Below, piece by piece: positions 17,382 through 37,649 of a DNA stretch of 64,000 bases. Source of the DNA: Kiritimatiellia bacterium (GTDB lineage Bacteria; Verrucomicrobiota; Kiritimatiellia; RFP12; UBA1067); contig JAFQYM010000009.1 of NCBI GenBank assembly GCA_017406465.1, positions 8,221 to 72,220 of the forward strand, in the 5' to 3' direction. Numbering within the stretch: the stretch's first letter is position 1; each line of letters begins with the position of its first letter. Under the pieces are notes generated by a model. The model did not search any database. It was not told where the DNA came from and was given only the letters and a program-made list of their open reading frames with translations. A program made the position numbers and the translations under genes.

Positions 17382-17405
17382 GACTCTCGCATTTACGTAG
17401 AATAT

Positions 17406-19928: not shown

Positions 19929-19958
19929 AACGACCCCTATCGCACATGCACTATCTTC

Positions 19959-21986
19959 TTAGGTTTCTTTATATGTGAGTATCATTTGTGCAACGTACTG
20001 CGAAATGTTGCCATTTGACGCAACATGCTTTAGCGTGTAAAGAAGATTTGCCCAATCCTCGCAGAATGCATTCGCCTCCTGCCGCGTCTTGGCAAGGAGC
20101 AAAAATGGCGTCGCCGTTTTGTCATTATCACAGGCAAACAGCTTAAGGTCTTTCCACTCATCGCTATTGTTGCAGTACTTCTTGATACTATAGCTGAATG
20201 ACGTCACTTCCACATCCGAATGCCTCTTGCGCAGCCAATCAAACTGCGCGGACAGCACATTGCTTGTAAATGGATCGTCTTGCGTGAAGAAATCTTCCCC
20301 ACCCTTCAAAAACACATAGAACAAATTCAATCCTGGCGAAAGCCTGCAATCTTTGCGCATAGGGCTGGAATTGCCTGTAAATTGCGCATAATCTTGAATG
20401 AAAGCCGCAACGACGGCATTCGAGTTAAGCCCCTTCAATTCTCGTGCCCAATCGTTCCCATTTCCATCTTCACTCAATGACAGTTCCTTGTTCTCCAACT
20501 CGCGCCGCTTGTCATAGAACTTGAGAAATGCCAGTTCCTCCGCCCTCGCAAGCAGGGCAGATTCGTTCGTCCCCGGCGCGGGGCCACGCGAACTCCCCCT
20601 CTTGTCGGCAAAGATGGCATTGCGCAATGCCGAATTTTTCGCGCTCCATATCTTTATGATCCGCAAGAGCGCGATTCCAATGACAAGCGCAAAAGCCATG
20701 ACAATCGATAGTATGCTTACAAAACTAGTCTGGCCGAAAGCACTATTCAACTTGGCACTTTTGGCGGCGAGATATGGCACCAGCGTACAGCCGACAATCA
20801 CGACAAACATCGGCTCAAATCCCCCGCATACGACAAGCCAGTCTCCACCGGAGAGGCCAAATTTCTCCATGTGCTTCTTCTTCATCACTGCATCATGTAG
20901 CGAAACGCCAGCCAATTGACAAACTGGCGCGACAATGGTGCCTAACACAACGACAATCCAAACCAGCCAAAAACCGTTCGACAAGAAAAACGCCCTGAAT
21001 CCCTCGGCCTTCCCAAGCCAACCATCCATATACAAAACCCATAGATCGTCAAACTCTAGAACCTTCCCTGTCGCAGTGCCCACATGCCCAGCAAGCCAAT
21101 GAGAGCCAGACCAAAACAGATATGCCAAGGCCGCAGCCCCTGAGCACATAATCAAATTCATGACAAGAGCAGCAGTAAGCGCGGCCCGGAATTGCCTTCC
21201 TGCCATGATTTTATCATCCTCGGCCGACACAAGCAGATTGCCGTTTATCTTTGCAAAAGTGTACACGGCACAAATGAAGGCGACTAATGCAGCCCAAACG
21301 GTTATTCCGCCAAGATGCTCCCAAACCCCAACTGGACAACGGGCAGACAAATTCAATATGCCACTTGCAAACACCATGAGGAGCGAGCAAATCCAGACGA
21401 GCGCTTCCACTAACGAGAAATCCTTCGGAGATTTCTTCGGAAAAAGAATAATCAAAAGCAACCCCATATAATAGCCATAGCTGCGAAGCGCTTTTGCCGC
21501 TGTTTCGGATATCACGCTATTGTCAACGGCATCTTGCGCGTAATGCAAGATGAACTTCATCTCAAAGAATCTGGCAAAAAAATATCCAGTCGGCAAAGCA
21601 ATCAACCACCACTTATATTTCCAAATCTTGCGACACGTCACCTTTAGCATTATCCAAATCCATTTCGCATCCCCCTTCATCGCACCCCAAAGGAAAAGCA
21701 CTAACAGCCAAACACCCAGCAACCCAAGTGACACTATAGACGCTAGCAGCGTTCGCATGAAGACCGTGAATATCCGTTCGGCATCAATGATGGGATTGCT
21801 GTTCAGAACATCATACCCCAATGGGAGAAGCCCCCACAGAAGCGGCGCGACAATCGCGAGACAGAGCCATCCCAACCGGCTGAATGCCGCATGCCCCAGC
21901 ACCTTGATCAAGGCGCACAGATCAACTAAACCACCCCACACGTTGACACTTGGCGGCAGACGCAGCAAAGACATTTTCTTACTCAT
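19959..21986 (-). CDS. Polytopic membrane protein with a cytoplasmic C-terminal domain, hypothetical
   Basis: More than 10 hydrophobic helices. Start chosen at the Met whose ATG overlaps the phosphatase stop (ATGAGTAAG); the track start at 22022 is also possible. Confidence 0.55.
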   Translation of the reverse strand: MSKKMSLLRLPPSVNVWGGLVDLCALIKVLGHAAFSRLGWLCLAIVAPLLWGLLPLGYDVLNSNPIIDAERIFTVFMRTLLASIVSLGLLGVWLLVLFLWGAMKGDAKWIWIMLKVTCRKIWKYKWWLIALPTGYFFARFFEMKFILHYAQDAVDNSVISETAAKALRSYGYYMGLLLIILFPKKSPKDFSLVEALVWICSLLMVFASGILNLSARCPVGVWEHLGGITVWAALVAFICAVYTFAKINGNLLVSAEDDKIMAGRQFRAALTAALVMNLIMCSGAAALAYLFWSGSHWLAGHVGTATGKVLEFDDLWVLYMDGWLGKAEGFRAFFLSNGFWLVWIVVVLGTIVAPVCQLAGVSLHDAVMKKKHMEKFGLSGGDWLVVCGGFEPMFVVIVGCTLVPYLAAKSAKLNSAFGQTSFVSILSIVMAFALVIGIALLRIIKIWSAKNSALRNAIFADKRGSSRGPAPGTNESALLARAEELAFLKFYDKRRELENKELSLSEDGNGNDWARELKGLNSNAVVAAFIQDYAQFTGNSSPMRKDCRLSPGLNLFYVFLKGGEDFFTQDDPFTSNVLSAQFDWLRKRHSDVEVTSFSYSIKKYCNNSDEWKDLKLFACDNDKTATPFLLLAKTRQEANAFCEDWANLLYTLKHVASNGNISQYVAQMILTYKET

Positions 21987-22641
21987 AGATGCTCCTTTCC
22001 GTATAAGGTTCCGTGAGAACAAAATCGTTGTCGCAAGACATTTGCCCGCTACAGCTGTTCAACATTAGTGAAATATGGCAGTTCGGCAACTGTCCCATCA
22101 CGTCAAACCACCTGACATCCCAGTGATACCACCTTGCCAAGAAGCACTTGATCGCCGTGCCGTGGGAAACGATAATGATGTTTTCAGGGCAGTCGGCGCG
22201 ATCGAAGCGGCGAAACAACGAATCCATGAACAGCGCCATGCGATCATAGACATCCGCACACGATTCGCCGTCGGGGAAGCGGTAGAAGAAATATCCGAAC
22301 TGCTCACGGAAAGCTCGATTCGCATCGTTCTCGTCCGTCGGTGGCATATTGCCGTATTCCTGCTCGCGCAATTCTGGATCTTGATAGTCAAATACCGGCT
22401 CTCGCCCTATTCCCTCCAACATCGCATTCTTGGTCTGCTCCGCCCGCACATACGGCGAACTGAACACCCCGAACGCCCCATCGCCAATCAACCCCGCAAT
22501 ACGCCGCCCCGCCTCTCGCGCCTGCGCAACGCCCGTGTCCGTCAACGCAATCTTCCAATCCGGAATCTTCGCATAGACCTCATGATCTACGTTCGCTTCC
22601 GACTCGCCGTGCCGGAGAAGTATGATGCGCTTAGGGGTCAT
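21979..22641 (-). CDS. Histidine phosphatase (phosphoglycerate-mutase-like) family protein
   Basis: N-terminal LLRHGESEAN catalytic motif and a C-terminal His (SHG). ATGA overlap with the upstream gene. Confidence 0.8.
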   Translation of the reverse strand: MTPKRIILLRHGESEANVDHEVYAKIPDWKIALTDTGVAQAREAGRRIAGLIGDGAFGVFSSPYVRAEQTKNAMLEGIGREPVFDYQDPELREQEYGNMPPTDENDANRAFREQFGYFFYRFPDGESCADVYDRMALFMDSLFRRFDRADCPENIIIVSHGTAIKCFLARWYHWDVRWFDVMGQLPNCHISLMLNSCSGQMSCDNDFVLTEPYTERSIYE

Positions 22642-25600
22642 GAGGGGTTGTCTCCACCTGATTCAAGGCGCTCTATACAAATGTGAGCAATAGCCAAGAA
22701 ACACGCCGCTGCTTGGATATTATGATCATGCTTTAAATATATTTTAAAAGTATATAGACAACAAAGCGCCGTCGTAAGAGTATACATGTCCGGTGTCATT
22801 TGTTTGTCTTTGAGCGCCGCCCTCCGTATTCGTCTCAATATCTTATAAACCAACGTAAACCGTCTATCGTTGGCAATGTAATCAGGCTCATCTTCATTAA
22901 CAGAAAACATCGCGTCGCATATGTATTTTCTGAATATGCGCACAAGGCGTGCCGCATATCGCGCACTACCACCAACACCTTCATCATTCCATAGGTCATT
23001 ATCAAACAACAAACTGATCGTCGCAGAAAACATGACATTAAAATCATGTGCGATATAGTCGCGTCTTGTCCTTGCAAAATCAATCAACCACACATCCTTC
23101 TCAGGGTTGCCATTCTTCTCATCAAGCATTATATTGGCATAATTCATATCTCCGTGAATAATACCCTGCTGACAATTAAATCGTTCTCCTGTGGTATCCG
23201 CTTGTACCAATTTATCAATCCGACCTTTTTCATCAAGCACTAATTTTCCATACCCAGAGATGTTGACAACTCCATTCCGACCTCCTTTCAACAGATTCTC
23301 GATTAACGTAATTATGCATTGTTTACATCGATTATCAGGATCTCTATTGTCGGATGAATATTTAAATTTATTATCATCGCTCGTCCTATTCTGTTCATCT
23401 CCGTTATAAAACACAACGATACTTTTACTATCGGGATAGAGTCGTTCTTTAATTGACTTCAAGATTGCACCATCTAATTTAGGCTCCACCTCGCTATTCT
23501 TGACAATCGCATATAGCGTTTGCCCTGGCATCGGATGTCGATATTTAGCCACATGCTCGGCTACTACACCTTTTAAAACAACTGTAATCTTGGAATAATC
23601 ATTCACTCCTTGTTTATTCTGTATCTCGTATGCCTCAATTGCATGGCGGCCAACATCATCCTTGCACAAACCATGAAATTCAAAGGCCTTAATCTTTGGG
23701 GCCCTACGAACACAAGCCTCTTCCTGCGAAACAAAGCACTCTACATCATAATACTTTGCGATTGGCATTCGAGACAAATAGTTGCCGACAAAACCATTTT
23801 TCGACAGCACCTTTTCCCCTAATATATGGTTGGGGAAAGACGACATGGCTTTCTCAATCTCAAGATCAAATGAAATGCCATGTATCTTTGGCAATATATC
23901 GTCAAATATTGAATCAAATACACTCGCATACTTTTCATAGTCGCAACGCGCGAAAAACTTTATGTCATTAGAAAGCTTTTCTTTCATCGTTGACAAATTA
24001 TGCGAAGGGTCGTTCTTCCCCGCGAAGGAGTACACGATAGCCGAATTGTCTTTATCGACGACTTTGTTCTTCGTCTCGATTCTTCCACATTCATTTGCTA
24101 TATATGGCCGAATAAAACGGAAGTACCGTTCGAACTCGGTCATAGTATTAAATGCCGAATCAATCTTAACGATTACAGGACTTTGCAATGGTTTTTCATG
24201 GCCCTCAATTGTTTTCCATGCCTTGAATGTCACAGCGGAACTCATGCCGCCGCCCATTGGCTTGATATGTATTCTCTTTCCGGGCAGTTTCTCTAGTACT
24301 TTATAAGTGAGATACATGCGTTCCTGCTCATGTTCGCTACAAAAACTTGCACTCCGTCCAGTCTCAATGGAAAACATGTCTCGATCACACAATCCAAGCC
24401 GTCCCAATGAATCCCATTCCTTTCCCCATTTCTGAAACGAAAGCAATGAAATCATATGACGGGGCAACTTTTCAACATCCTCTTTCCTAATAAACCAATC
24501 TGCCCCAGCTGCAAACGCACGTGAAATATGCCCCATATCATCATATCTCGAATAGATGACAACAGGGATTTGCGGAAAGAACTGCTTAATATATTTTATC
24601 AATTGATACCCAGAAGGATCGTGGCCCGGGTGATCGGCAAGTCTTAGATCCAACAATACAAAATCATAAGATTTATGTGAATCACTTATTTGCCTGAACT
24701 GAGATATAGCCTGTCGAACAACGGTATTGTCACCAGGTATATCCGCCCGAACGGAGATTGGCTCAATAGCCATCACAGGTTTTGTCCTGGCCTCAATATC
24801 TTTCTTTGCATTCTCCGCATCATCATCAATTAACAATCCTGAGAATCTGATTACTGGCGAGAAATACGCGACTTGCGAACCGCCCGGTTCATAAATCACT
24901 TCCTCGCTGAATTTCTTACCACAGTCCTCGTCGTTCAAGTTGTTGCCTTTGACGAATAGACTTGATAATGACGCCATTTCACTCTCGAAAACGACTTCCC
25001 TAAGTCGCTTGAACAACGACTTACTTTCATAGCGTCTTCTCAACTGTTCCTTGTACTTTTTCCAAACACCACCCGGATCATCCTTCAGATTCTTAACATC
25101 GATTGTCCCGTCCGTTCCATGAACATCTTCATCCAGCATGCAAAACCGCCTAAATGCACCAGCCATCCAGTCTTTTATGTCTTCAGCTGACAATCCTTCT
25201 TTCAATTTCTCATCCGACCTCCACGCTTTCATGCGCAATAGCATATCCCGCACAAGGTCGACAGTCAATGCGCCATCCGTTTTATTCGCTTTTCCCTTCT
25301 CAAACCGCAGGACAAATTCATTAGGAATCGAGAAACCAGCCCCATCTATGACACGGACTCGCTTTCCATTGCCCATCGCATATTCAAAATCAACGAAGAG
25401 CGGATAAAATTTCTCAACGCCAGAAAGCTTATCTATTTCAAGAGGGCCGTACCCAAGGCCACGACAGGCCTCTTTAATAACTTCAGCAAGCTTACCAACA
25501 GTTGATGCCGCCGTAACTGGAATAATTAACAATGGCACTATAGTAGCCACCTGTCCATCATTCGTAAGGCTTGCAAAATCTTGTGCATCATATGAGTACT

Positions 25601-26225
25601 GATACACTCGGTTGCTATGTTTTTTACTTTCCGCAGCCAATTTATCAGACAACTCCTTAACTTCAGCTTCACTACTTGGTAATTTCTTCAATCTCCATTT
25701 CGCCCCCGTCTCAACATCCGTCACATTGAAGATTTCCTTACGCATTGAACTAATTGCTTGAACATCCCATTTGACGTAATCATTATTAGCTTGTTTCCAC
25801 CTAGCGAAAACTTCTTGAAAAGCATTGTCCATATCAGAGACGCCGCCAGCATCACCCCCATCTCCCCAGTGGCAAAAAACATGGACAACATTGTCATGCG
25901 TGGGCTCGCCAACGACAACTTCCGTGATATTCTTTTCGATATAATCTTTGACAAAGGTTGTCAGACAATTATCAGCAACTCTTCCAGTGCGAATTACATC
26001 TTTTAGCTCATCAACGTCAGTACTCCTCTTAAGAATGATACAAACACTATCAATATCATCACTCCATTCCACCTTAATAGAAGCAGTGTCCCCTATGCTG
26101 TCTATGAGATCATCAGCACCATCATCACTACTATCAGAATCAAAACCCGATGACGCATCATATGGCATGCCATCATAAGCGTCAAACTCATCTTGATCTT
26201 TGGCAATAAAAACGGCGATTGTCAT
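22638..26225 (-). CDS. 1195-aa multidomain protein: acidic N-terminus, response-regulator receiver (REC) domain, RIO/Kdo-like atypical protein-kinase domain
   Basis: REC: LLIDDD acidic pocket, phospho-acceptor DFVLLDLRL, PVVIYS, FIRKE. Kinase: Gly-rich PMGGGMSSAVTFKAW, VIVKID Lys, catalytic IIHGDMNYANIML, WLIDFARTR DFG-like. Low GC. Confidence 0.65.
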   Translation of the reverse strand: MTIAVFIAKDQDEFDAYDGMPYDASSGFDSDSSDDGADDLIDSIGDTASIKVEWSDDIDSVCIILKRSTDVDELKDVIRTGRVADNCLTTFVKDYIEKNITEVVVGEPTHDNVVHVFCHWGDGGDAGGVSDMDNAFQEVFARWKQANNDYVKWDVQAISSMRKEIFNVTDVETGAKWRLKKLPSSEAEVKELSDKLAAESKKHSNRVYQYSYDAQDFASLTNDGQVATIVPLLIIPVTAASTVGKLAEVIKEACRGLGYGPLEIDKLSGVEKFYPLFVDFEYAMGNGKRVRVIDGAGFSIPNEFVLRFEKGKANKTDGALTVDLVRDMLLRMKAWRSDEKLKEGLSAEDIKDWMAGAFRRFCMLDEDVHGTDGTIDVKNLKDDPGGVWKKYKEQLRRRYESKSLFKRLREVVFESEMASLSSLFVKGNNLNDEDCGKKFSEEVIYEPGGSQVAYFSPVIRFSGLLIDDDAENAKKDIEARTKPVMAIEPISVRADIPGDNTVVRQAISQFRQISDSHKSYDFVLLDLRLADHPGHDPSGYQLIKYIKQFFPQIPVVIYSRYDDMGHISRAFAAGADWFIRKEDVEKLPRHMISLLSFQKWGKEWDSLGRLGLCDRDMFSIETGRSASFCSEHEQERMYLTYKVLEKLPGKRIHIKPMGGGMSSAVTFKAWKTIEGHEKPLQSPVIVKIDSAFNTMTEFERYFRFIRPYIANECGRIETKNKVVDKDNSAIVYSFAGKNDPSHNLSTMKEKLSNDIKFFARCDYEKYASVFDSIFDDILPKIHGISFDLEIEKAMSSFPNHILGEKVLSKNGFVGNYLSRMPIAKYYDVECFVSQEEACVRRAPKIKAFEFHGLCKDDVGRHAIEAYEIQNKQGVNDYSKITVVLKGVVAEHVAKYRHPMPGQTLYAIVKNSEVEPKLDGAILKSIKERLYPDSKSIVVFYNGDEQNRTSDDNKFKYSSDNRDPDNRCKQCIITLIENLLKGGRNGVVNISGYGKLVLDEKGRIDKLVQADTTGERFNCQQGIIHGDMNYANIMLDEKNGNPEKDVWLIDFARTRRDYIAHDFNVMFSATISLLFDNDLWNDEGVGGSARYAARLVRIFRKYICDAMFSVNEDEPDYIANDRRFTLVYKILRRIRRAALKDKQMTPDMYTLTTALCCLYTFKIYLKHDHNIQAAACFLAIAHICIERLESGGDNPS

Positions 26226-29200
26226 TTGTGTTCTCCTATTGGTAAAATGTTCATAATCGTATCGACCAGCACCATTTTCTCTGGGTATTTCTTAAAGAGC
26301 GCAGTCTCCACTACGGAAAATGGCAGTATCCGCGCTGAATCTGGAATGTTCGCAGGAGTGCCACGACCTGTCGTAATCACAACATACGGGACGAACTCTT
26401 TAAGCCTCTTGATAAAAGACTCAACCTTGCCACAATCCGTCCCCACGTGCGGCAACCACTTATCTATCAATCCTTGGTGGATAATCAAGATATCAAAACG
26501 CCAGTCGCGCAATGGGAGCTCCTCACAATTGGTCGCCGAAGACCCATTGACTATCGCATATCTCAGGAAGGCGTCGAATCTCCCTTTGTCTAATGTTATG
26601 AGCGAATCCAACCCAATCTTCTCTTCGCCAAACTTGGTCTCGTCAACGCACCAAATACCCATGCGACAAAATGTCTTGATCTCATCGGACCGATTTCGCA
26701 AAAACTTTGAAACCCGTTCGTCAACTATTAAAATACGCGAGAGCCCCGTCTCATACATCTTAGCAATAAGATGGTAATTGGTTAGTCGTTGATAGACGGA
26801 TTCATTCTGTCCAAGCATCATCATATCATTAAGATATGATTGTGTTCCGCTCAAAGGCTCCAAATACAACATTTTGTCTTGATTAAAATCATCGGATGTT
26901 GCATGCCGCATAAACGCAATGGATTTCCCTTCATTCCATTCCGCGTCTTTTTCATTATATACCAAAGATATTCCCAGTTCTTGCACAATCTTATTATCTA
27001 CACCATCTACGCCCTCCCCGCCGCTATTCCCTTTTATTTCATCATTCAAATCTTCTCCAAAACAACAAGGAAGCGTTATGATTCTCTCTTCATACTTCCG
27101 CAACATGACATCAGATTCTCTGTATGCCGAGCATAGATCCTTAACAAACATAGGCATCCCATTTGATTTATTCACTGCATTGCCTTGATACAAAGGATTG
27201 CCCTGCCTTATCTTAAAATCTGATGCATTGTTTCCAAGTGCTTCTGAAACTTTCGCGTGGTATTTCAATGCAATTGCGTAAACTGCTTCCAATCCCTTTT
27301 TATTGTCAACTGCCGCCATTCTTCTCAATTTGTATTTTTCAGCAAAGGCCGCGAACCCTTGTAAAAGACCATCCGGCGTGTCTCTTAAAATGCCCTGCAA
27401 CACAGAAAACCATCCATCCAATACCTTAAAAATCAATTCCCGTTCTGAATAATCAGCATCAGCTTTGACATCATTAATTTTTTTCCGTAATATCTCATTT
27501 TCACCAACAAAACCAAACACATTCCCATTTATATCAAGCGTTTTCGGCATAGCAACTATCAACGCCAAATACCAATAAACCTCATCTGCAATTATATTTG
27601 GGCGAAGCTCTCCATCTTTCAGTAAATTACCCACAATAGAACGGAACATTTCCTTAAAAACGAAATTCCACACATCCAGATTGCTCACCAACCCCTGCCC
27701 AGGATTCCCCGACGAACCTACTTCCGTCGTCAACACTCTCAACGCAGGCAAGCCAGAATCAAATCTCCTTCTCGTCTCACTCCAATAAGTTATCCACGCT
27801 TTAATCGCCTTGACTTTCAATTTCTTTGCGACAGCCTCTGCCGAAATCGTCCCATTCTGCAAGTCTTTCAACACATCATCATAAAATCCAGACGCATTCG
27901 GAACCATATCAACTTTGCCACTATTATCATTTGCCAAGACGCGGAATGGCAAATGAGGGTCTGCCTGTGAAGGGAACTTCGGCAAAACAACGAACGAATA
28001 GTTCCAATCCTCTTCGCTGTCATTCTTTGGCTTAACAAATCGACCGTCTTTTGGTGGTGGCACAACGAACACGCCTAATGTCCGCAGCTCTTTAATTATG
28101 TCCACATTGACACCAGTCGTATCACAGACAAAGGCAATATCTCTTGGACGAGGAATCGTGAAATGATACCCAAGATGATCTTCATTAGCACGTATTGGTG
28201 TTATTATAGGAATCCCTTTCGACATCCCTCCTATATCGGAGATAGAGCGCTTATTAAGATAACCAGCCGATATCTTCATCTCAGCAAGCCCCCAGTTCTC
28301 TCGCCGCAAAGACCCTGTCTCATCTATAAATGGCTTCTCTATCCTAATCTGCTGACAATGGTGCAATGGCATCCAAAGGCGATTGCCTAAACGTCCATCG
28401 CCAGGCACATCACCAATAAGTCGTCCCGCAATCCGCTTCAATTCATTTTCATTATATTTTAACAGACATGCATATTGCTCTTGATAAAAGACTGGCAACT
28501 GAGCCACAGAGCATTTCCCCGATAAAAACTCTGCAATGCATTCTTGCTCCGACGGTAGTAAAGAAGTCTGCAAGGCTTCTTTATACGTCTCATACCATCT
28601 TTTAAGCGACTCATCAGTTGTATGTGAAGTCCAAAGTCGTTTGCCTATGCCGCCATCGCTTGACGCCTCGCCCACAAGCCAACGCTCAATCTTCTCAATG
28701 GCATCCTTGTCCCGATTCTTTAGCAATAAATACTGTTTCTTGTAACATTCAGGCAAGGAGTCCACCGCCCCCTTCCCAGAGAGAAACTTTGAAATCTGCA
28801 TCCTTTCATCTCGCGTCAATCTCTGCAGGACATCTCTACACTCCTCGAACCACTTCAAAAGATCTTTATCAACCATCCAATAGTCATCGAACGTCGCAAA
28901 CACATTTGATATACCATCATAAACATCAACCAAAACCGCCCTTCCGTCATCGTCTGCGGCGAAATCGACATAAACATCCAGATTTGTCTTTTCTCCTTTA
29001 AACTTTGACCAACCATGCTTTGCTGCGTTTCGAATTACATTCTCAAGAATAGTAAAGAATGCATGAGAGCCGACAATGCCACCCGGCAATGCAACTGCTA
29101 AATCGCTTGAAAATTTATCATTGTCTCTCACACTCTTTTTAGCATTCGCGACATTGGATGCATTTTCAACAATAGGATCATCGCTATAGGTAATAAATTC

Positions 29201-31258
29201 AACAGACTTGCGTCCATCATTGAATCGCCTTGAGACATGCAGCTTTATAGTGTTTTCTTGGCTCCACCTAGCAGGACCTGAGACATTAGGGTCTTGGAAC
29301 TTAAATGCGTGAAGGCCTTCGCTACTTGCTATATATTCCAAGAGATGTCGTTGAGAAAGAAAGCGACGTGTCAAATCATTTACTAGTTTTGCGCTGCCAG
29401 CCCATGTAGGGAAATCTGTTGTTGCCGTCGCAGTATAATCCATTCTGTGCTGTATGTACTGATACAAAACTCTGTCATCCGGCATCGTCCCTATATTATG
29501 AGACAACGCCGCCAATACATGACTACCAATATTATGGGAACCATTGCGAGACATTATTGAGCCAATGGCAGACTTTGTATTTGCTATCTTAAGCTTATTC
29601 GTCGCTATTGCATTTCGAACTCCATCAAATACCCGATTAACTGAATTCGACACTAGTTGCAATGCTATTAAATCCAATTTCCTTTTACAACTAAAGACAA
29701 TGCAGCCCTTATCCAACGCATTAGAAGTCTCTGGAACAAGATACACCCATCTATCGTCCCCCTTTAAATAATCTTTTGTCCAATTAGTCAACGCCTCTCC
29801 TCGCTTACGCATTTTGGAAATCGCTTCTCTACTACTATTTTTAAACTTAATAGCAGCATCTTCCTGCGACCATGCCGCTACTACTGGAAATCTTTTCTCG
29901 ATTGATTGGCAATATGGTACCGCGAACTTCCTGAGATTGGAGTCGTCTGAGCACTTAAGAAATAACCTATACGAATCATTGTCACATAAATCATATTCTC
30001 GCAAATTCACTTGAATAGGCTTATCCTCTAACGCACTTAGTAGCCCCTTCTGAAATATATCGACTTCAGCAGACGTGTCAGAAAAAAGAGCCTTCTCTCC
30101 CGAAAATATCATTACATGATTAAGATCAAAGTACTGACCTAAAAGTGAATGCCTCAAAACTTCCCAAACGAAAGAACGAAGAGAACAATCTGAAATATCA
30201 ACAACTTGGATCTTCGCGCATTTATCAACAAGTGCTTCAGTATCTTTCATGAAATTAACTTGCGCAATTGGCGTTAAACGGCAAACTAGATTATCAACTC
30301 CCGCCCTCCAATTCTCATCTATGGCCGGATAGCCAAATTCATTAACGATTTTACCTACTAGACACGGTGCTAGCGACCCACCTTTTCGCAAAACTATTGA
30401 ATCCTTTTCTCCCAACAAATAAACGCCTTTGTGCAACGGCTCTTCACAAAAGACACCCGCAGAAAAACAATCAGCAATCCTATCTCTCGAAAACTTAACA
30501 AATACTTGAAATAAATTCTTCGAGTCAATATCATTGACAAGAGACAAATAGCGAACACTTTTAAATTCAGGTGGGAAATGAACCTCATTATTACCCATGT
30601 CTGTACAAAGAATTGGCAATGCAATATCAGTAAACACAACTGCCGAATTGCTTACCGCGTATTTTAATATATATTCGTAATTGTCACCGTATCCTGTTAC
30701 ATATACAAAATCTCCTTTGCTAAGTATACTTTTTATAGATGTGTTTACCGAGGTGTCCTGATATGCGCAGGGCTTATATTTATACGCAATATGCGGTATC
30801 AATTCCCTGGACAAGGTTTCAAAATGCAACTTAAAAGCATTCTGCATATCTACCTGAGACGAACTGTAAAATATCCTCACAGTAATTTCATTCTCATCAT
30901 TATTACCACTCGTATACATCCTATGTATTTCGCCAATCATTCTTCGTGCAACTAAATACGTTTGATCCGTTGCCGATATCCACCAGCGATAATACTTTAT
31001 CCCAGCGGAAAGAATGATGTCCTCGTTTGTCTGAACAGTCCCCGTGCAGAAAAGAGGGATTCTCTGCGCTTTTGCAATCTTCAAGAGTGCTTCACTCGGC
31101 GTGCCAATTGAAAGAATGCCAGACCAAGATTCACCTAAGATATCACTGCGCAGTGAAGCATCAACGAAACTCTCCCCCTTGTATTTGCCAATTATTACTT
31201 TAGATGAATTATCCAACTCATCATCAGCCATTCCCCTGTAAACCAAAATCTTATTCAT
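26222..31258 (-). CDS. 1678-aa giant protein: PBP1-like N-terminal region, doubled SHNIG His motif, GHKL/HATPase_c-like N-box, internal duplicated roughly 60-aa module, receiver-like C-terminus
   Basis: N-terminus IGTPSEALLKIAKAQRIPLF…GDFVYVTGYGDNYEYILKYA is periplasmic-binding-protein-type-I-like. RNGSHNIGSHVLAALSHNIG at residues 572-590. ENVIRNAAKHG…VDVYDGISNV at residues 738-786. Repeats FLSGKGAVDSLPECYKKQY…GIGKRLW and FLSGKCSVAQLPVFYQEQY…RLGNRLW. C-terminus ILIVDER…FDILIIHQG. ATGA-coupled to the next gene. Confidence 0.6.
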   Translation of the reverse strand: MNKILVYRGMADDELDNSSKVIIGKYKGESFVDASLRSDILGESWSGILSIGTPSEALLKIAKAQRIPLFCTGTVQTNEDIILSAGIKYYRWWISATDQTYLVARRMIGEIHRMYTSGNNDENEITVRIFYSSSQVDMQNAFKLHFETLSRELIPHIAYKYKPCAYQDTSVNTSIKSILSKGDFVYVTGYGDNYEYILKYAVSNSAVVFTDIALPILCTDMGNNEVHFPPEFKSVRYLSLVNDIDSKNLFQVFVKFSRDRIADCFSAGVFCEEPLHKGVYLLGEKDSIVLRKGGSLAPCLVGKIVNEFGYPAIDENWRAGVDNLVCRLTPIAQVNFMKDTEALVDKCAKIQVVDISDCSLRSFVWEVLRHSLLGQYFDLNHVMIFSGEKALFSDTSAEVDIFQKGLLSALEDKPIQVNLREYDLCDNDSYRLFLKCSDDSNLRKFAVPYCQSIEKRFPVVAAWSQEDAAIKFKNSSREAISKMRKRGEALTNWTKDYLKGDDRWVYLVPETSNALDKGCIVFSCKRKLDLIALQLVSNSVNRVFDGVRNAIATNKLKIANTKSAIGSIMSRNGSHNIGSHVLAALSHNIGTMPDDRVLYQYIQHRMDYTATATTDFPTWAGSAKLVNDLTRRFLSQRHLLEYIASSEGLHAFKFQDPNVSGPARWSQENTIKLHVSRRFNDGRKSVEFITYSDDPIVENASNVANAKKSVRDNDKFSSDLAVALPGGIVGSHAFFTILENVIRNAAKHGWSKFKGEKTNLDVYVDFAADDDGRAVLVDVYDGISNVFATFDDYWMVDKDLLKWFEECRDVLQRLTRDERMQISKFLSGKGAVDSLPECYKKQYLLLKNRDKDAIEKIERWLVGEASSDGGIGKRLWTSHTTDESLKRWYETYKEALQTSLLPSEQECIAEFLSGKCSVAQLPVFYQEQYACLLKYNENELKRIAGRLIGDVPGDGRLGNRLWMPLHHCQQIRIEKPFIDETGSLRRENWGLAEMKISAGYLNKRSISDIGGMSKGIPIITPIRANEDHLGYHFTIPRPRDIAFVCDTTGVNVDIIKELRTLGVFVVPPPKDGRFVKPKNDSEEDWNYSFVVLPKFPSQADPHLPFRVLANDNSGKVDMVPNASGFYDDVLKDLQNGTISAEAVAKKLKVKAIKAWITYWSETRRRFDSGLPALRVLTTEVGSSGNPGQGLVSNLDVWNFVFKEMFRSIVGNLLKDGELRPNIIADEVYWYLALIVAMPKTLDINGNVFGFVGENEILRKKINDVKADADYSERELIFKVLDGWFSVLQGILRDTPDGLLQGFAAFAEKYKLRRMAAVDNKKGLEAVYAIALKYHAKVSEALGNNASDFKIRQGNPLYQGNAVNKSNGMPMFVKDLCSAYRESDVMLRKYEERIITLPCCFGEDLNDEIKGNSGGEGVDGVDNKIVQELGISLVYNEKDAEWNEGKSIAFMRHATSDDFNQDKMLYLEPLSGTQSYLNDMMMLGQNESVYQRLTNYHLIAKMYETGLSRILIVDERVSKFLRNRSDEIKTFCRMGIWCVDETKFGEEKIGLDSLITLDKGRFDAFLRYAIVNGSSATNCEELPLRDWRFDILIIHQGLIDKWLPHVGTDCGKVESFIKRLKEFVPYVVITTGRGTPANIPDSARILPFSVVETALFKKYPEKMVLVDTIMNILPIGEHK

Positions 31259-31278
31259 AGTAAATCATCCACGCTTAC

Positions 31279-32430
31279 TTATTTGATATTTTGGCCAATT
31301 TCTTCATCCAAAACAACTTCTTGTCCATTAGAATCAAATCCAACAACTATTAATGGAAAGAAAATCTCTCCCTGAGAATCATATGAAATTTCACCCACGA
31401 TAGAATGATATTTGCTTATACGCCGAAATCCTTCTATCAATTTATCACTAGATTTGGCATTTTTATACGCCTCATTATACAACATCAGTGCTTCATATGC
31501 AAAAGCGCCAACAATTGTAGGTTCTCTCCCATAAGCACGGGAATATTCATTTACAAACGCTATCCGCTCCGGAGTATTTATTTTCACGCCAAATTCTGTA
31601 TCAAGAAAGATGATATTAGATAAATCTTTTACATGAGAACGCTGATCAGAAGCAACCAATGATATTTCTGTCAAGATCTTACCACTAAACCGACACTCCT
31701 TTAAATAGTTCAAAGAAGATATATAAGCTGGACCAAAACCTGTTATAAAAATGGCATCAGGCTTTGAATCTACCAATTTCATAATTTGAGCCTTGACATC
31801 AACATCACTAATATCAAAGCGTTCTATGGGATACACAACACCATCTTTCCCATATTGAGATTTAAATATTGAAATCGCATCATCTCCACTTTGATCATTG
31901 ATTGCGAAGACTGCAATTCTATTAATTTTCAATATGTCATGTGCATATTTAGCCATAACTTTTGCCTGAAGAGCTACAGGAATCCACGCACGAAAAACCA
32001 AATCACTTAATTTCGTTACATCAGACGCACCAGTACCAAAGGCAACCAACGGCATATGCTCCTCATTCAACCGTGGAATAAACTGCGATACAGGCGTATT
32101 CCCGAAAGCCAGAACCCCCTTTAGCCGCTTCATTTGCAAAAGGCGAGCAAATGCCAACACAGTATCTTTGGAGGTGTATCTTCCATCCTCTACAATCAGC
32201 TCAAACGGTTGTTCATTACCAAACCGTCCTTCTAATTTCTGCTCTGCTATCTTTATGGAATTAAATATTTCCTGCCCCATTACAGAAACAGAACCCGTCA
32301 ATGGCAGGATCGCTCCAATCCGAATTACATCATCTGGTGCGGACTTATTCGTTGCCTTGTACGCCAGTAACGACACAATGCCAATCAGCACGACTGCGCC
32401 AATCGCAATCAGCAACTTATTTTTCTTCAT
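31279..32430 (-). CDS. Periplasmic binding protein, type I (LivK/LivJ-like ligand-binding protein), N-terminally anchored
   Basis: Signal/anchor MKKNKLLIAIGAVVLIGIVSLLAY. PBP1 core RIGAILPLTGSVSVMGQE…GVLAFGNTPV…IAVFAINDQSGDD. RBS AAAGGAAAAC. Very AT-rich. Confidence 0.75.
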   Translation of the reverse strand: MKKNKLLIAIGAVVLIGIVSLLAYKATNKSAPDDVIRIGAILPLTGSVSVMGQEIFNSIKIAEQKLEGRFGNEQPFELIVEDGRYTSKDTVLAFARLLQMKRLKGVLAFGNTPVSQFIPRLNEEHMPLVAFGTGASDVTKLSDLVFRAWIPVALQAKVMAKYAHDILKINRIAVFAINDQSGDDAISIFKSQYGKDGVVYPIERFDISDVDVKAQIMKLVDSKPDAIFITGFGPAYISSLNYLKECRFSGKILTEISLVASDQRSHVKDLSNIIFLDTEFGVKINTPERIAFVNEYSRAYGREPTIVGAFAYEALMLYNEAYKNAKSSDKLIEGFRRISKYHSIVGEISYDSQGEIFFPLIVVGFDSNGQEVVLDEEIGQNIK

Positions 32431-32452: not shown

Positions 32453-32719
32453 TCAAATGATTCCCAGCGCCTTTGCGCGCCACTCGCGGGCTTTGGACAG
32501 ATCCTGCGGGACGCCGCAACCAGATTCATAGCAGGATGCAAGCTGTCGCATGCAGTTCGCGTTTCCCAATTGCGCACCACGCATGAAGCACTCAATGGCC
32601 TTCTGCACGTCGACGACATTCTCGTTGGCGTCATCAAACAGGTATCGCATACCCGCCGCCCATTCGGCATCTCCATCGGTTTTGGGCGTGAAGTTCTTAA
32701 CCCAGTTCGTATCACCCAT
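32453..32719 (-). CDS. Sel1-repeat protein (88 aa)
   Basis: Two Sel1-like repeats: AAGMRYLFDDANENVVDVQKAIECFMRGAQLGN and MRQLASCYESGCGVPQDLSKAREWRAKA. RBS GGGAGG. Confidence 0.6.
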   Translation of the reverse strand: MGDTNWVKNFTPKTDGDAEWAAGMRYLFDDANENVVDVQKAIECFMRGAQLGNANCMRQLASCYESGCGVPQDLSKAREWRAKALGII

Positions 32720-37494: not shown

Positions 37495-37511
37495 AATGCC
37501 AATGTGGTGAC

Positions 37512-37522
37512 ATTATACCATA
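37512..37522 (-). promoter_or_regulatory. Extended -10 element TATGGTATAAT upstream of livH
   Basis: Reverse complement of attataccata. About 20 nt upstream of the livH ATG. Confidence 0.5.

Positions 37523-37572: not shown

Positions 37573-37649
<77 letters not shown>

What the first reader, a model, noticed from the sequence alone, without database searches (positions are those of the whole stretch)
22638..32430. Sharp drop in GC content over about 10 kb
By eye, the PBP1 gene, the 1678-aa gene and the REC-kinase gene are strongly AT-enriched (for example ttgatattttggccaatttcttcatccaaaacaacttc). The flanks are about 60% GC, and liv, gat and arg genes are GC-rich with GC3-biased codons.

Intermediate composition continues to about 14.9 kb. 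This indicates horizontal acquisition of the core of the giant operon. No integrase or transposase ORF is present, so the mobilisation route is unclear.
Basis: seen in the sequence. Interest (0 to 1): 0.55.

Follow-up and report, generated by a model that had tools for sequence, protein, structure and literature searches.

The report
AT-rich swappable sensor cassette in operon
The 10-kb AT-rich stretch is not a foreign island but the hypervariable, recombination-swapped sensor and kinase core of a conserved transporter-linked signalling operon of gut Kiritimatiellia, built around a large, undescribed family of histidine kinases.

Summary
The GC drop is real and sharp. Window 22638-32430 averages 0.415 GC against 0.571 elsewhere, with GC3 about 0.33-0.40 against 0.65-0.85, and both edges fall on gene boundaries.

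It is not an inserted island. The same 13-gene order is found in at least nine versions from related gut Kiritimatiellia: livHMGF, a variable slot, a Sel1-like 88-aa gene, a binding protein (PBP), a giant kinase, a REC-TCAD9 kinase, a His phosphatase and membrane proteins. In every version where both were compared, the same three genes are AT-rich and hyperdivergent or mosaic. The interleaved liv, Sel88 and HisPhos genes stay GC-rich and 63-93% identical.

Cassettes are swapped by homologous recombination at short conserved anchors. One 3-kb cassette is nearly identical (dS 0.02-0.03) between two backgrounds whose anchor genes differ at dS 0.44-0.72. I found no integrase, att repeats, or phage or plasmid relatives.

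The giant protein is a divergent histidine kinase with interchangeable head domains. Its family is large (2160 representatives), has no Pfam model, and usually sits directly after an ABC transporter and binding protein. Across that family the binding-protein and kinase genes are systematically AT-richer and far more divergent than the transporter genes. The cause of the AT-richness is unresolved.

The parts
37573..37649 (-). tRNA-Pro(TGG), immediately upstream of the operon. It is not an attachment site: no repeat of its 3' end was found.
   Evidence: tRNA; no att-like repeat
34241..37494 (-). livH (36610-37494), livM (35744-36613), livG (34951-35757) and livF (34241-34954): Liv-type ABC transporter permeases and ATPases. 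This is the conserved, GC-rich (0.55-0.60) half of the unit.
   Evidence: Pfam BPD_transp_2 and ABC_tran; 66-93% aa identity to other versions; the same genes precede the PBP and kinase in distant family members
32845..34227 (-). YhcG/DUF1016 PDDEXK nuclease + DUF4357 (460 aa), GC 0.49. It occupies a variable insertion slot between the transporter genes and the Sel1-like gene.
   Evidence: Pfam; PADLOC candidate PDC-S02, E 1e-120. In other versions the slot holds ATPase_2/DUF234, a 618-aa gene, a 344-aa gene or other YhcG paralogues.
32453..32719 (-). Sel1-like 88-aa gene: a conserved, GC-rich (0.56) anchor at the upstream edge of the AT-rich block.
   Evidence: 80-93% aa identity in all versions that have it; GC3 0.62-0.74; dS only 0.37-0.56
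31279..32430 (-). Peripla_BP_6 substrate-binding protein (383 aa) with an N-terminal signal/anchor helix. GC 0.385, GC3 0.33. First gene of cassette A. The 478-aa ORF to 32715 is an over-extension.
   Evidence: Pfam E 1.5e-27; gene calls; hydrophobic N-terminus; only 21-32% identity between cassette types
29630..31258 (-). Giant protein residues 1-543: the variable 'head' domain and second part of cassette A. Function unknown. Seven mutually unalignable types occur in nine loci, and one of the others is an N6_N4 methyltransferase domain.
   Evidence: found only in P0002, P0003 and a fragment; matrix; L012 head = N6_N4_Mtase, E 3.6e-10
29375..29629 (-). Giant protein residues 544-628: the ultra-conserved DHp helix with the motif SAIGSIMSRNGSHNIGSHVLAALSHN..MPDDRVLYQYIQHRMDY. 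It acts as an internal recombination anchor. The junction with L010 and L007 is at ~29402-29433.
   Evidence: 67-100% aa identity across nine loci; invariant His residues; nucleotide alignment of the junction; blastn endpoints identical in L007 and L010
27959..29374 (-). Giant protein residues 629-1100: catalytic ATP-binding (CA, GHKL) domain with N-box ENVIRNAAKH and G2-like RENWGLAEMKISAGYL, split by a variable insert that here holds two ~70-aa repeats.
   Evidence: AlphaFold model, pLDDT 82.5, pTM 0.81; all top 50 Foldseek PDB matches are DHp+CA histidine kinases; weak HATPase_c in 2 of 15 family members
26222..27958 (-). Giant protein residues 1101-1678: a variable middle region plus a strongly conserved C-terminal ~200-aa domain (RILIxDER..FDILIIHQG..YVVITTGRGTP..ILPFS). 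The latter may be receiver-like, but this is unconfirmed.
   Evidence: alignment A4, 41 invariant columns; present in 46 of 58 family loci; no PDB or Pfam sequence match
22638..26225 (-). 1195-aa protein: unknown N-terminal domain (residues 1-450, invariant FCHWGxGG), receiver domain (about 461-590; D467/D468, D526, S559, K586 invariant) and TCAD9 protein-kinase-like domain (about 620-1190; HGD1026..N1031, IDF1050 invariant). It forms cassette B together with the kinase's C-terminal two-thirds.
   Evidence: Pfam Response_reg and TCAD9; alignment A3; Foldseek hits to REC domains, TM-score to target up to 0.78; 30-51% identity between versions
21979..22641 (-). Histidine-phosphatase superfamily (branch 1) gene of 220 aa: a conserved, GC-rich (0.54) anchor at the downstream edge of the AT-rich block. 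Its start overlaps the TCAD9 stop.
   Evidence: Pfam E 1.8e-29; 65-82% aa identity across versions; blastn similarity resumes exactly at 22642
14922..21986 (-). Three downstream genes of intermediate GC:
- d1, 675 aa, about 8 TM helices (19959-21986).
- d2, 840 aa, 2 N-terminal TM helices plus a conserved C-terminal 220 aa (17406-19928).
- d3, 819 aa (14922-17381).
They are mosaic in the same way as the core: variable parts are AT-richer and conserved parts GC-richer.
   Evidence: TM segments, cross-locus homology; no Pfam, NCBIfam or PADLOC match

Best explanation
**What the stretch is.** The AT-rich 9.8 kb is the hypervariable specificity core of a conserved, vertically positioned 13-gene operon (about 14.9-37.5 kb, minus strand) found in gut Kiritimatiellia. 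It is not an inserted island. The operon is one functional unit made of:
- a Liv-type ABC transporter (livHMGF);
- its periplasmic binding protein (PBP);
- a giant cytoplasmic, highly divergent histidine kinase with an interchangeable head domain;
- a response-regulator protein whose output is a TCAD9 protein-kinase-like domain;
- a histidine-phosphatase-family enzyme;
- several membrane proteins.

**Shown.**
- Between lineages, two cassettes are replaced. Cassette A is the PBP plus the kinase head. Cassette B is the rest of the kinase plus the REC-TCAD9 protein.
- Replacement happens by homologous recombination at three short conserved anchors: the Sel1-like gene, the 85-residue DHp motif and the HisPhos gene.
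- The cassettes are AT-rich in every lineage examined. The PBP and kinase genes are AT-richer and far more divergent than the transporter genes across the wider kinase family.
- The AT-rich genes are under purifying selection.

**Inferred mechanism.**
1. The PBP and transporter capture or import a ligand.
2. The kinase head senses it, or senses the transporter's state, in the cytoplasm.
3. The kinase autophosphorylates on a histidine of the SHNIGSH motif and transfers the phosphate to D526 of the REC-TCAD9 protein, switching on its kinase.
4. The HisPhos enzyme resets the system, and the membrane proteins are targets or outputs.

The PBP and head being swapped as one unit suggests they form a matched specificity pair kept diverse by diversifying or frequency-dependent selection, as in pherotype or conflict loci.

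**Unresolved.** AT-richness is a regional property of the cassettes. Its cause is either repeated import from an AT-richer allele pool or a local AT-biased evolutionary regime.
For: **Synteny and conservation of the dip**
- Searches show the same gene order in L007, L010, L012-L014 and L018-L020. L012 also shares the terminal 819-aa gene (76% identity) and the convergent AAA-M41 gene.
- Searches show PBP, giant and TCAD9 genes at GC 0.31-0.51 in every version. liv genes are at 0.56-0.64, and Sel88 and HisPhos at 0.54-0.57 (one HisPhos at 0.49).

**Hypervariability and mosaicism**
- Conserved: liv 63-93%, Sel88 80-93%, HisPhos 65-82%, DHp motif 67-100%.
- Variable: PBP 21-32% between types, kinase heads in seven unalignable types among nine loci, remainder 25-51% with incongruent nearest neighbours.

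**Recent cassette exchange**
- Searches show identical breakpoints at 29402 and 22642 against both L007 and L010.
- One search gives dS 0.02-0.03 for cassette A against 0.44 (Sel88) and 0.72 (HisPhos) in the same pair.

**Functional genes:** dN/dS 0.10-0.17.

**No mobility signature:**

**Kinase identity**
- 2160 family representatives.
- invariant H-box-like and N-box residues.
- confident model, and all top 50 PDB matches are DHp+CA histidine kinases.
- weak HATPase_c matches.

**Partner:** intact REC and kinase motifs.

**Family-wide coupling to transporter and PBP:**, and (PBP directly upstream in 41 of 58 loci; REC in 22).

**Family-wide AT bias and divergence**
- median GC difference -0.087.
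- GC3 of the kinase is below that of the ATPases in 25 of 32 loci, and GC3 of the PBP is below in 26 of 28.
- 19 of 19 non-identical locus pairs with ATPase identity of 75% or more have PBP at 21-38% where a PBP alignment was obtained (18 of the pairs) and kinase at 30-62% or unalignable.
Against: - No biochemical evidence exists for any step, and the ligand is unknown.
- The kinase head, the TCAD9 protein's N-terminal domain and the downstream proteins have no assigned fold or function.
- PBP and head co-variation rests on only three loci sharing one type.
- Within the window's own species, every sample carries the same allele, so standing polymorphism within a population is not shown.
- The family-level statistics use loci that are not phylogenetically independent, so the p-values are inflated.
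- The conserved DHp segment is also AT-rich (GC3 0.375). AT-richness is therefore not simply a consequence of fast protein evolution, and an old foreign origin of the whole PBP-kinase block cannot be excluded.
Confidence: 0.62

Rival explanations
1. Classical horizontally acquired island. A block of foreign, AT-rich DNA was recently inserted into a native GC-rich operon of this genome by an unknown mobile element.
For: - Strong, sharp compositional break, also seen in tetranucleotide usage and at GC1 and GC2.
- A tRNA-Pro lies at the head of the operon.
- The giant protein's head domain is extremely rare.
- Family members exist in uniformly AT-rich genomes that could in principle be donors.
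Against: - The same genes sit at the same position in every relative examined, and they are AT-rich in all of them.
- No empty site was found.
- There is no integrase, transposase, att repeat or tRNA-fragment repeat.
- The giant protein has no phage or plasmid homologues.
- The flanking 'liv' genes are functionally part of the same unit in other phyla.
- Start and stop codons overlap at both internal gene junctions (giant/TCAD9 and TCAD9/HisPhos).
Confidence: 0.07
2. Cause of the AT-richness, option A: an endogenous regime. The cassettes are native. Because alleles are too divergent to recombine internally and evolve under diversifying selection, they escape GC-biased gene conversion and codon or GC selection. 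They then drift toward the AT-rich mutational equilibrium.
For: - Cassette GC3 scales with host GC3 (slope 0.38, r 0.71) rather than sitting at one donor value.
- The dip vanishes in hosts that are already AT-rich.
- The dip is present in many unrelated lineages of the family.
- Within the operon, GC3 correlates with conservation (rho 0.72).
- No external donor was found.
Against: - The 85-residue DHp anchor is 81% conserved and is itself a crossover site, yet it is still AT-rich (GC3 0.375).
- GC1 and GC2 are also shifted, which implies very long exposure.
- No direct measurement of substitution direction was made.
- gBGC in Kiritimatiellia is assumed, not shown.
Confidence: 0.4
3. Cause of the AT-richness, option B: repeated import. 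Cassettes circulate horizontally among many hosts, including AT-richer ones, and are continually re-imported by recombination at the anchors. They therefore never equilibrate to the host's composition.
For: - A recent cassette transfer is demonstrated.
- Cassette GC varies widely (0.31-0.47) while the flanks stay at 0.55-0.62.
- Nearest neighbours are incongruent between modules.
- AT-rich genomes carry family members.
Against: - All close relatives of the window's cassettes are in Kiritimatiellia loci of the same type.
- The partial tracking of host GC is not expected from a common AT-rich pool unless exchange is mostly among relatives.
Confidence: 0.35
4. Functional rival: the locus is an anti-phage or inter-bacterial conflict system in which the PBP, kinase head and TCAD9 kinase diversify in an arms race. 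On this view it is not a ligand or kin-signal sensing two-component pathway.
For: - TCAD9 was defined from conflict-system neighbourhoods and belongs to the protein-kinase-like clan (Kaur et al. 2020, PMC7159879, for the systems).
- Head domains are displaced by unrelated domains (methyltransferase, NACHT), as in conflict systems.
- A slot in the operon collects defence-candidate genes such as YhcG/PDC-S02 and ATPase_2.
- A double-AAA FtsH-like gene with IetA-like hits is a conserved neighbour.
Against: - No PADLOC model matches any core protein.
- No MoxR or vWA partner is present.
- The ancestral family context is an ordinary-looking transporter + PBP + REC two-component module.
- No toxin-type effector domain was recognised.
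Confidence: 0.3
5. Artefact: a chimeric metagenome assembly or binning error joined AT-rich DNA from another organism to a Kiritimatiellia contig.
For: The source is a MAG. One short contig (L031) does carry a chimeric tail.
Against: - The full junctions were assembled independently in many samples and by different pipelines at 99.3-100% identity. This includes a 19.3-kb contig identical over both edges.
- Reading frames overlap across the TCAD9/HisPhos edge.
- The same pattern occurs in at least eight other genomes.
Confidence: 0.01

Closest known systems
Replacement flexible genomic islands (for example O-chain, flagellar-glycosylation and giant-protein clusters; Lopez-Perez et al. 2014, PMC4033161)
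   Same: - Same genomic position in different lineages.
- Contents barely or not homologous but functionally equivalent.
- No integrases or illegitimate-recombination hallmarks.
- Exchange by homologous recombination in conserved flanks.
- 'Smoking-gun' pairs with near-identical cassettes in divergent backgrounds. Here that is window versus L010.
   Different: - The variable unit is not a polysaccharide or surface-structure gene cluster. It is the sensor and transducer half of a signalling operon, and only the PBP lies outside the cytoplasm.
- One crossover anchor lies inside a gene (the DHp helix of the kinase), so the protein itself is a chimera.
- The comparison here is between species-level MAGs, not strains of one species.
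Pherotype-type polymorphic two-component loci (Bacillus comQXP, Staphylococcus agr; reviewed in PMC6334282)
   Same: - A hypervariable segment covers the signal-handling genes plus the 5' sensor part of the histidine-kinase gene.
- The kinase catalytic part and the flanks are conserved.
- The variable parts form matched specificity sets.
   Different: - No signal-peptide or signal-processing gene was found.
- The extracellular component is an ABC-transporter binding protein.
- The kinase is cytoplasmic, with no membrane sensor.
- The downstream half (kinase C-terminal part and the response regulator) is also hypervariable.
- Any quorum-sensing role is untested.
Transporter-coupled histidine kinases ('trigger transporters': PstSCAB-PhoU-PhoR, BceAB-BceS). 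This comparison rests on my own knowledge and was not tested here.
   Same: A kinase without its own extracytoplasmic sensor is encoded with, and presumably depends on, an ABC transporter. The gene linkage is conserved across the family.
   Different: - The kinase family is unrelated at the sequence level and has no Pfam HisKA or HATPase_c hit above threshold.
- The proteins are giant (1100-1900 aa) with swappable enzymatic-type heads.
- The importer is of the Liv/Peripla_BP_6 type.
- Physical or functional coupling has not been demonstrated.
MoxR-vWA 'ternary' conflict systems of Kaur, Burroughs, Iyer and Aravind 2020 (PMC7159879). The attribution of the TCAD9 domain name to this work is my inference.
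   Same: - A TCAD9 kinase-like domain is present.
- A neighbouring protein has two AAA domains of the FtsH type, as in their FtsH-containing class.
- Domain displacement and diversification follow the same theme.
   Different: No MoxR and no vWA protein is present in or next to the operon. The core here is an ABC transporter + PBP + histidine kinase. The locus fails the defining-feature test and is not a member.
Classical integrative genomic or defence islands
   Same: Atypical composition, unknown-function genes, proximity to a tRNA gene, and a defence-candidate nuclease gene in the neighbourhood.
   Different: No integrase, no direct repeats, no empty site, and a conserved position and gene order in all relatives.

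Membership tests
Classical horizontally acquired (integrative) genomic island | Composition deviating from the host genome | tested here: met
   GC 0.415 against 0.571, GC3 about 0.33-0.40 against 0.65-0.85, tetranucleotide correlation at or below 0
Classical horizontally acquired (integrative) genomic island | Presence/absence polymorphism: relatives with an uninterrupted (empty) site | tested here: not met
   All related loci examined carry PBP, giant and TCAD9 genes in the same order between the conserved liv/Sel88 and HisPhos genes. No empty site was seen.
Classical horizontally acquired (integrative) genomic island | Mobility genes (integrase, transposase, recombinase) and flanking direct repeats or a tRNA-3' duplication | tested here: not met
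   The called operon genes were scanned with Pfam and no mobility gene was found. No att-like repeat occurs in 14-38 kb. The tRNA-Pro has no duplicated end.
Replacement-type flexible genomic island / allelic cassette locus | Same chromosomal position in different lineages, bounded by conserved genes | tested here: met
   Flanking liv, Sel88 and HisPhos are 63-93% identical, and the 819-aa and AAA-M41 genes are shared with L012
Replacement-type flexible genomic island / allelic cassette locus | Contents of equivalent function but negligible or low similarity between lineages | tested here: met
   PBP 21-32% between types, seven unalignable kinase-head types in nine loci, rest of kinase and TCAD9 25-51%
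Replacement-type flexible genomic island / allelic cassette locus | Evidence of exchange by homologous recombination (near-identical cassette in divergent backgrounds; breakpoints in conserved sequence) | tested here: met
   Cassette A dS 0.02-0.03 against anchors at 0.44 and 0.72. Junction at the end of the conserved DHp motif. Shared breakpoints at 29402 and 22642.
Replacement-type flexible genomic island / allelic cassette locus | Different versions coexisting among strains of one species or population | tested here: inconclusive
   Contigs carrying the window's exact anchor proteins all carry the same allele. L010 shares a 98% identical upstream gene but a different cassette B, and its species identity cannot be determined from a 17.9-kb contig.
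Sensor histidine kinase (two-component system) | DHp helical hairpin followed by a GHKL (CA) ATP-binding domain | tested here: met
   AlphaFold model, pLDDT 82.5, pTM 0.81. All top 50 Foldseek PDB matches are DHp+CA kinases, probability mostly 0.9-1.0 (lowest 0.75), E 2e-3 to 2e-2.
Sensor histidine kinase (two-component system) | Conserved phospho-acceptor His in DHp helix 1, and N and G boxes in the CA domain | tested here: met
   Invariant H36, H41 and H48 of the core construct lie at the C-terminal end of helix 1 or just beyond it. Invariant ENxxRNxAKH. Invariant WGxAE..S.G.L..G, which is G2-like. Which His is phosphorylated is not known.
Sensor histidine kinase (two-component system) | Match to curated HisKA/HATPase_c sequence models | tested here: not met
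   No Pfam or NCBIfam hit for the window protein even at E<=1-5. Only 2 of 15 relatives reach HATPase_c weakly (best E 5.6e-4).
Sensor histidine kinase (two-component system) | Cognate receiver-domain partner encoded nearby | tested here: met
   The REC domain with intact DD, D, S/T and K residues lies in the next gene. REC genes flank 22 of 58 family loci.
Sensor histidine kinase (two-component system) | Autophosphorylation and phosphotransfer activity | not testable with these tools
   Requires biochemistry
MoxR-vWA ternary conflict systems (Kaur et al. 2020) | MoxR AAA+ ATPase plus vWA protein plus a third component (VMAP, iSTAND, FtsH or beta-propeller) | tested here: not met
   No MoxR or vWA domain in any gene from 9.6 to 39.8 kb. 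Only a TCAD9 domain and a neighbouring double-AAA FtsH-like protein are present. System definition taken.
Known anti-phage defence systems (PADLOC-DB v2) | Match of core proteins to a defence-system model | tested here: not met
   No hit for PBP, giant, TCAD9, HisPhos or d1-d3. Only the inserted YhcG gene (candidate PDC-S02) and the AAA-M41 neighbour (IetA-like AAA) match.
Pherotype-type quorum-sensing locus (comQXP/agr-like) | Signal precursor and processing genes co-varying with the kinase sensor part | tested here: inconclusive
   PBP and kinase head are exchanged as one unit, but no signal-peptide or processing gene was recognised. The small Sel1-like gene is conserved, not variable.

The most novel reading that the evidence does not exclude
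The window exposes a widespread, undescribed class of ABC-transporter-coupled two-component systems: (REC)-livHMGF-PBP-giant atypical histidine kinase-(REC), with at least 2160 representative kinases across bacteria and archaea.

In this class the binding protein and the kinase's swappable head form a hypervariable, AT-rich specificity cassette. The cassette is exchanged by recombination at an ultra-conserved DHp motif that doubles as a crossover anchor.

On this reading the system is a recognition device (kin or self versus non-self, or phage or competitor sensing) rather than a nutrient sensor. In gut Kiritimatiellia it is wired to a REC-activated protein-kinase-like effector.
Probability: 0.25. 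Interest if true: 0.8.

Novelty: new variant of a known kind. Interest (0 to 1): 0.6.

Why it matters
- **For genome annotation.** A sharp GC dip is routinely read as a foreign island. Here it marks an allelic cassette region inside a conserved operon, maintained for a long time in many lineages. Composition alone would therefore give the wrong history.
- **For biology.** The locus brings to light a large histidine-kinase family that curated domain models do not detect. The family is consistently linked to Liv-type ABC transporters and binding proteins, has interchangeable head domains, and uses a conserved DHp motif as an in-gene recombination anchor.
- **For evolution.** The sensor half is systematically AT-richer and far more divergent than the transporter half across phyla. 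That makes a concrete test case for whether AT-richness of variable genes comes from foreign origin or from a local evolutionary regime (no gene conversion, diversifying selection). This question has usually been argued only for surface-polysaccharide loci.

Tried and rejected
- **Curated family scans.** PADLOC, NCBIfam and relaxed-threshold Pfam scans found nothing for the giant protein's head and tail, the TCAD9 protein's N-terminal third, d1-d3 and the 575-aa neighbour.
- **PDB sequence searches.** Searches with the giant protein and with a profile of its conserved C-terminal domain gave no usable hit. The only match was a chance-level YtoQ hit at E 0.75. The receiver-like reading of the C-terminus is therefore unconfirmed.
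- **First homologue search.** The word-indexed search with the full giant protein returned only three proteins and wrongly suggested an orphan. The exhaustive search corrected this.
- **TCAD9 protein model.** The full-length model was mediocre (pLDDT 64) and Foldseek recognised only the REC domain. The N-terminal domain stays unassigned.
- **Literature.** Searching for the kinase motif gave nothing. 'TCAD' does not occur in the text or held supplement of Kaur et al. 2020, so what TCAD9 was originally associated with could not be read directly.
- **Diversification mechanisms.** DGR-like, invertible or att-type repeats were looked for and not found. Rfam found only the tRNA.
- **Mobile-element origin.** Phage and plasmid collections gave no match.
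- **Within-species polymorphism.** Exact anchor-protein look-ups found none. The one apparent variant (L031) is an assembly chimera with a GC 0.665 nonsense tail.

Full report
**1. Observation**

- Three consecutive minus-strand genes have GC 0.39-0.42 and GC3 0.33-0.40. They are 22638-26225 (1195 aa), 26222-31258 (1678 aa) and 31279-32430 (a 383-aa binding protein; the 478-aa ORF is an over-extension).
- Housekeeping genes in the same window have GC 0.59-0.65 and GC3 0.69-0.85.
- In 1-kb windows the region averages 0.415 +/- 0.024 against 0.571 +/- 0.052 elsewhere. The two sets do not overlap.
- The transitions occur within about 100-200 bp, at 22.6 kb and 32.4 kb.
- Tetranucleotide usage becomes uncorrelated with the rest of the window.
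- The intermediate zone down to 14.9 kb is also real.
- The locus was assembled independently in about ten samples at 99.3-100% identity, so it is not an assembly artefact.
- The source is a Kiritimatiellae MAG from ruminant gut metagenomes.

**2. What is encoded**

From the tRNA-Pro at 37573-37649 a tightly packed minus-strand operon runs to 14922. Its genes in order are:
- livH, livM, livG and livF (Liv-type ABC transporter);
- a YhcG/DUF1016 nuclease (PADLOC candidate PDC-S02);
- a Sel1-like 88-aa gene;
- a Peripla_BP_6 binding protein with a signal/anchor helix;
- the 1678-aa protein, which has no Pfam, NCBIfam or PADLOC hit;
- a 1195-aa protein with a receiver domain and a TCAD9 protein-kinase-like domain;
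- a histidine-phosphatase-superfamily enzyme;
- an 8-TM membrane protein, a 2-TM 840-aa protein and an 819-aa protein, all without family matches.

Gene junctions overlap or are 13-30 bp apart, apart from a 125-bp gap between the YhcG and Sel1-like genes. No integrase or transposase is present.

**3. The dip is a conserved feature of a syntenic locus, not an insertion**

Relatives of the giant protein and of the TCAD9 protein, together with a scan of GTDB species genomes, led to eight further versions of the locus: L007, L010, L012, L013, L014, L018, L019 and L020. The named hits are gut Kiritimatiellia MAGs.

Gene order is the same in all of them. L012 also shares the terminal 819-aa gene (76% identity) and the convergent AAA-M41 gene.

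In every version the PBP, giant and TCAD9 genes are AT-rich, at GC 0.31-0.51. The liv genes are at 0.56-0.64, and the small Sel1-like and HisPhos genes wedged against the AT-rich genes are at 0.54-0.57, with one HisPhos at 0.49. The most extreme case is L014, with core genes at 0.30-0.36 against livF at 0.59.

No version lacking the core was seen.

**4. Hypervariability and cassette exchange**

All-against-all comparisons give the following identities.

| Part | aa identity between versions |
|---|---|
| liv genes | 63-93% |
| Sel88 | 80-93% |
| HisPhos | 65-82% |
| 85-residue DHp stretch of the giant protein | 67-100% |
| PBP (between types) | 21-32% |
| Giant N-terminal ~350-830 residues | seven mutually unalignable types in nine loci |
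| Rest of the giant protein and TCAD9 protein | 25-51% |

- One of the alternative N-terminal heads is an N6_N4 methyltransferase domain.
- Nearest neighbours differ from module to module. For example, L010 and L012 have an identical DHp stretch but only 29% identity in the C-terminal part. L012 and L013 share 72% in the middle part but 45% in the TCAD9 protein.
- DNA similarity of the window to both L007 and L010 stops at the same two coordinates, 29402 and 22642.
- The window and L010 are identical up to about 29433 and unrelated beyond 29402. That point is the end of the ultra-conserved motif ...QHRMDY.ATATTDFP.W.
- For that pair the PBP and the first 617 codons of the giant gene have dS 0.02-0.03. 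The adjacent Sel88 gene has dS 0.44 and HisPhos 0.72.
- This matches the 'smoking-gun' criterion used for replacement flexible genomic islands (PMC4033161).
- The AT-rich genes evolve under purifying selection (dN/dS 0.10-0.17), so they are functional.
- No att repeats, DGR-like repeats or invertible segments were found. There are no phage or plasmid homologues.

The route of exchange is therefore homologous recombination at three conserved anchors: Sel88, the DHp motif and HisPhos. These define two cassettes.
- Cassette A is the PBP plus the kinase head.
- Cassette B is the rest of the kinase plus the REC-TCAD9 protein.

**5. The giant protein is a divergent histidine kinase of a large, unannotated family**

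- An exhaustive profile-free search with residues 1-1100 found 2160 representative proteins at E<=1e-3, of which 313 are at E<=1e-30. Most are 1100-1900 aa, and they match only residues ~500-1100.
- Named members come from bacteria and archaea, and all are 'hypothetical'. Some carry class-I methyltransferase or NACHT domains at the N-terminus.
- The core has near-invariant motifs: SAIGSIMSRNGSHNIGSHVL..SHN..MPDD..YQYIQ.RMDY, then ENxIRNAAKH, then RENWGLAEMKISAGYL.
- An AlphaFold model of the window's core is confident (pLDDT 82.5, pTM 0.81). It shows a long helical hairpin followed by an alpha/beta domain.
- All top 50 PDB matches are DHp+CA sensor kinases such as WalK, CpxA and HK853.
- Two of 15 relatives weakly match HATPase_c.
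- The C-terminal ~200 residues are strongly conserved and look receiver-like by eye, but no sequence match supports this.
- The TCAD9 protein has invariant receiver residues (D467/D468, D526, S559, K586) and invariant kinase catalytic motifs (HGD1026, N1031, D1049). Its REC fold is confirmed. Its N-terminal 450 residues remain unassigned.

**6. The transporter link and the AT bias are family-wide**

- Distant members in other phyla are also encoded directly after a Liv-type transporter and a Peripla_BP_6 protein.
- In 58 metagenomic loci with a strong core match, a PBP gene lies immediately upstream on the same strand in 41. ABC ATPases occur in 30, Liv permeases in 23 and REC genes in 22.
- The canonical order is (REC)-permease-permease-ATPase-ATPase-PBP-kinase-(REC).
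- TCAD9 and HisPhos occur in only 5-6 of these loci, so they are a clade-specific output.
- In 34 loci that have both halves, the kinase gene is AT-richer than the transporter genes (median -0.087, down to -0.21). The exception is genomes that are already very AT-rich.
- At third codon positions the kinase is below the ATPases in 25 of 32 loci (median -0.115). The PBP is below them in 26 of 28 (median -0.20).
- Cassette GC3 tracks host GC3 only partly (slope 0.38, r 0.71).
- In all 19 non-identical locus pairs whose ATPases are at least 75% identical (permeases 83-96%), the PBPs are 21-38% identical wherever an alignment was obtained (18 of the pairs). The kinases are 30-62% identical or unalignable.
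- These loci are not phylogenetically independent, so the p-values are only indicative.

**7. Interpretation**

*Shown.*
- The AT-rich block is the hypervariable sensor and transducer core of a conserved operon.
- It is exchanged cassette-wise by homologous recombination.
- The same compositional and divergence asymmetry characterises the whole kinase family.

*Inferred.*
- The transporter and PBP present a ligand, the kinase head senses it (or the transporter's state), and phosphotransfer goes from the SHNIGSH histidine to D526 of the REC-TCAD9 kinase.
- HisPhos resets the system, and the membrane proteins act downstream.
- The PBP and head being swapped as one unit suggests a matched specificity pair. 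The closest analogies are the comQXP and agr pherotype loci (PMC6334282) and replacement flexible islands.

*Unresolved.* The cause of the AT-richness.
- The conserved DHp stretch is still AT-rich at third positions (GC3 0.375). The bias is therefore regional and not a by-product of fast protein evolution.
- Partial tracking of host GC and the lack of any outside donor favour a local regime. The demonstrated transfers and the wide spread of cassette GC favour repeated import.

**8. Comparison with known systems and novelty**

- The locus fails the tests for a classical island: no empty site, no mobility genes, no repeats.
- It fails the tests for the MoxR-vWA ternary systems, to which I attribute the TCAD9 name, because no MoxR or vWA protein is present.
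- It meets the tests for a replacement-type cassette locus, apart from within-species coexistence, which could not be shown.
- The kinase meets the structural and motif criteria of a histidine kinase but not the curated sequence models.

I rate the finding a new variant of a known kind. The evolutionary phenomenon is known. Its occurrence inside a signalling operon with an in-gene anchor, and the underlying transporter-coupled kinase family, appear to be undescribed, as far as the held literature and libraries show.

Noticed in passing
window 48136-51238: A second AT-rich patch (GC 0.46-0.48 against ~0.62 in its flanks; tetranucleotide correlation 0.24). It holds three ORFs (324, 378 and 343 aa) with no Pfam match, directly downstream of a 1472-aa bacterial TSP3-repeat protein (51235-55653).
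   Followed up: partly
window 11379-14348 (+); also L007 1-1907 and 23517-24500, L012 21321-23585: A 989-aa protein with two AAA domains and a C-terminal M41 peptidase (FtsH-like, with no membrane anchor seen). It is a conserved neighbour at the end of the operon in the window and L012, and two paralogues flank the module in L007. It matches PADLOC IetA-type AAA models and resembles the double-AAA FtsH component that Kaur et al. 2020 describe for their FtsH ternary systems. No MoxR or vWA protein is nearby.
   Followed up: partly
window 32845-34227 and the equivalent slot in L012, L013, L014, L007, L010, L019: The position between the transporter ATPase genes and the Sel1-like gene is an insertion hot spot holding a different gene in each lineage:
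- a YhcG nuclease (PADLOC candidate PDC-S02), present as two tandem paralogues in L010;
- ATPase_2/DUF234, inserted between livG and livF in L012;
- a 618-aa unknown;
- an AT-rich 344-aa unknown;
- DUF3990/DUF3791 genes in L007.
L007 also retains a ~100-bp remnant of the livF 3' end (window 34240-34345 matches L007 6245-6350 at 85%), although its liv genes are not adjacent.
   Followed up: partly
window 32453-32719: The Sel1-like 88-aa gene has unusually low synonymous divergence (dS 0.37-0.56) compared with neighbouring conserved genes (dS 0.7 to >1.2). A long alternative-frame ORF, the N-terminal extension of the 478-aa PBP ORF, overlaps it. This could reflect an extra constraint (an RNA or regulatory element, or dual coding) or homogenisation at a recombination anchor.
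   Followed up: no
window 37506-37530 and 37663-37687: A 25-nt direct repeat (84% identical, GGTGAYATTATACCATA...) brackets the tRNA-Pro gene on both sides. It may be a duplicated promoter or processing element.
   Followed up: no
window 28360-28830 (giant protein residues ~810-965): Inside the ATP-lid insert of the kinase's CA domain there are two tandem ~70-residue repeats (..FLSGK..(S/Q)LP..Y..QY..L......(L/I)..I...L.G....DG..G.RLW). Single copies of the same motif occur in other family members. It is predicted to be helical with lower confidence.
   Followed up: no
window 9616-11343 (+): A 575-aa ORF with no family match lies between the promoter region and the AAA-M41 gene. It is absent from the syntenic position in L007, where window 9345-9502 and 11374-13292 match contiguous L007 sequence, so it is a lineage-specific insertion.
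   Followed up: no
L031 3034-3633: A short metagenome contig is 99.97% identical to the window up to position 31487 (inside the PBP gene). It then continues with 600 nt of GC 0.665 sequence that has a nonsense translation and no match to any locus. This is most likely an assembly chimera. Many other contigs from these samples break inside the AT-rich block.
   Followed up: yes
L022 (Hadza gut Kiritimatiellaeota MAG) 10001-16716: This is a reduced relative. A short REC + TCAD9-like gene, HisPhos and the 819-aa homologue are present in a GC 0.61-0.67 genome. tblastn with the window's giant-kinase and PBP proteins found no match in the 21.5-kb locus. A local dip to GC 0.44-0.45 occurs in the gene between HisPhos and the 819-aa homologue.
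   Followed up: no
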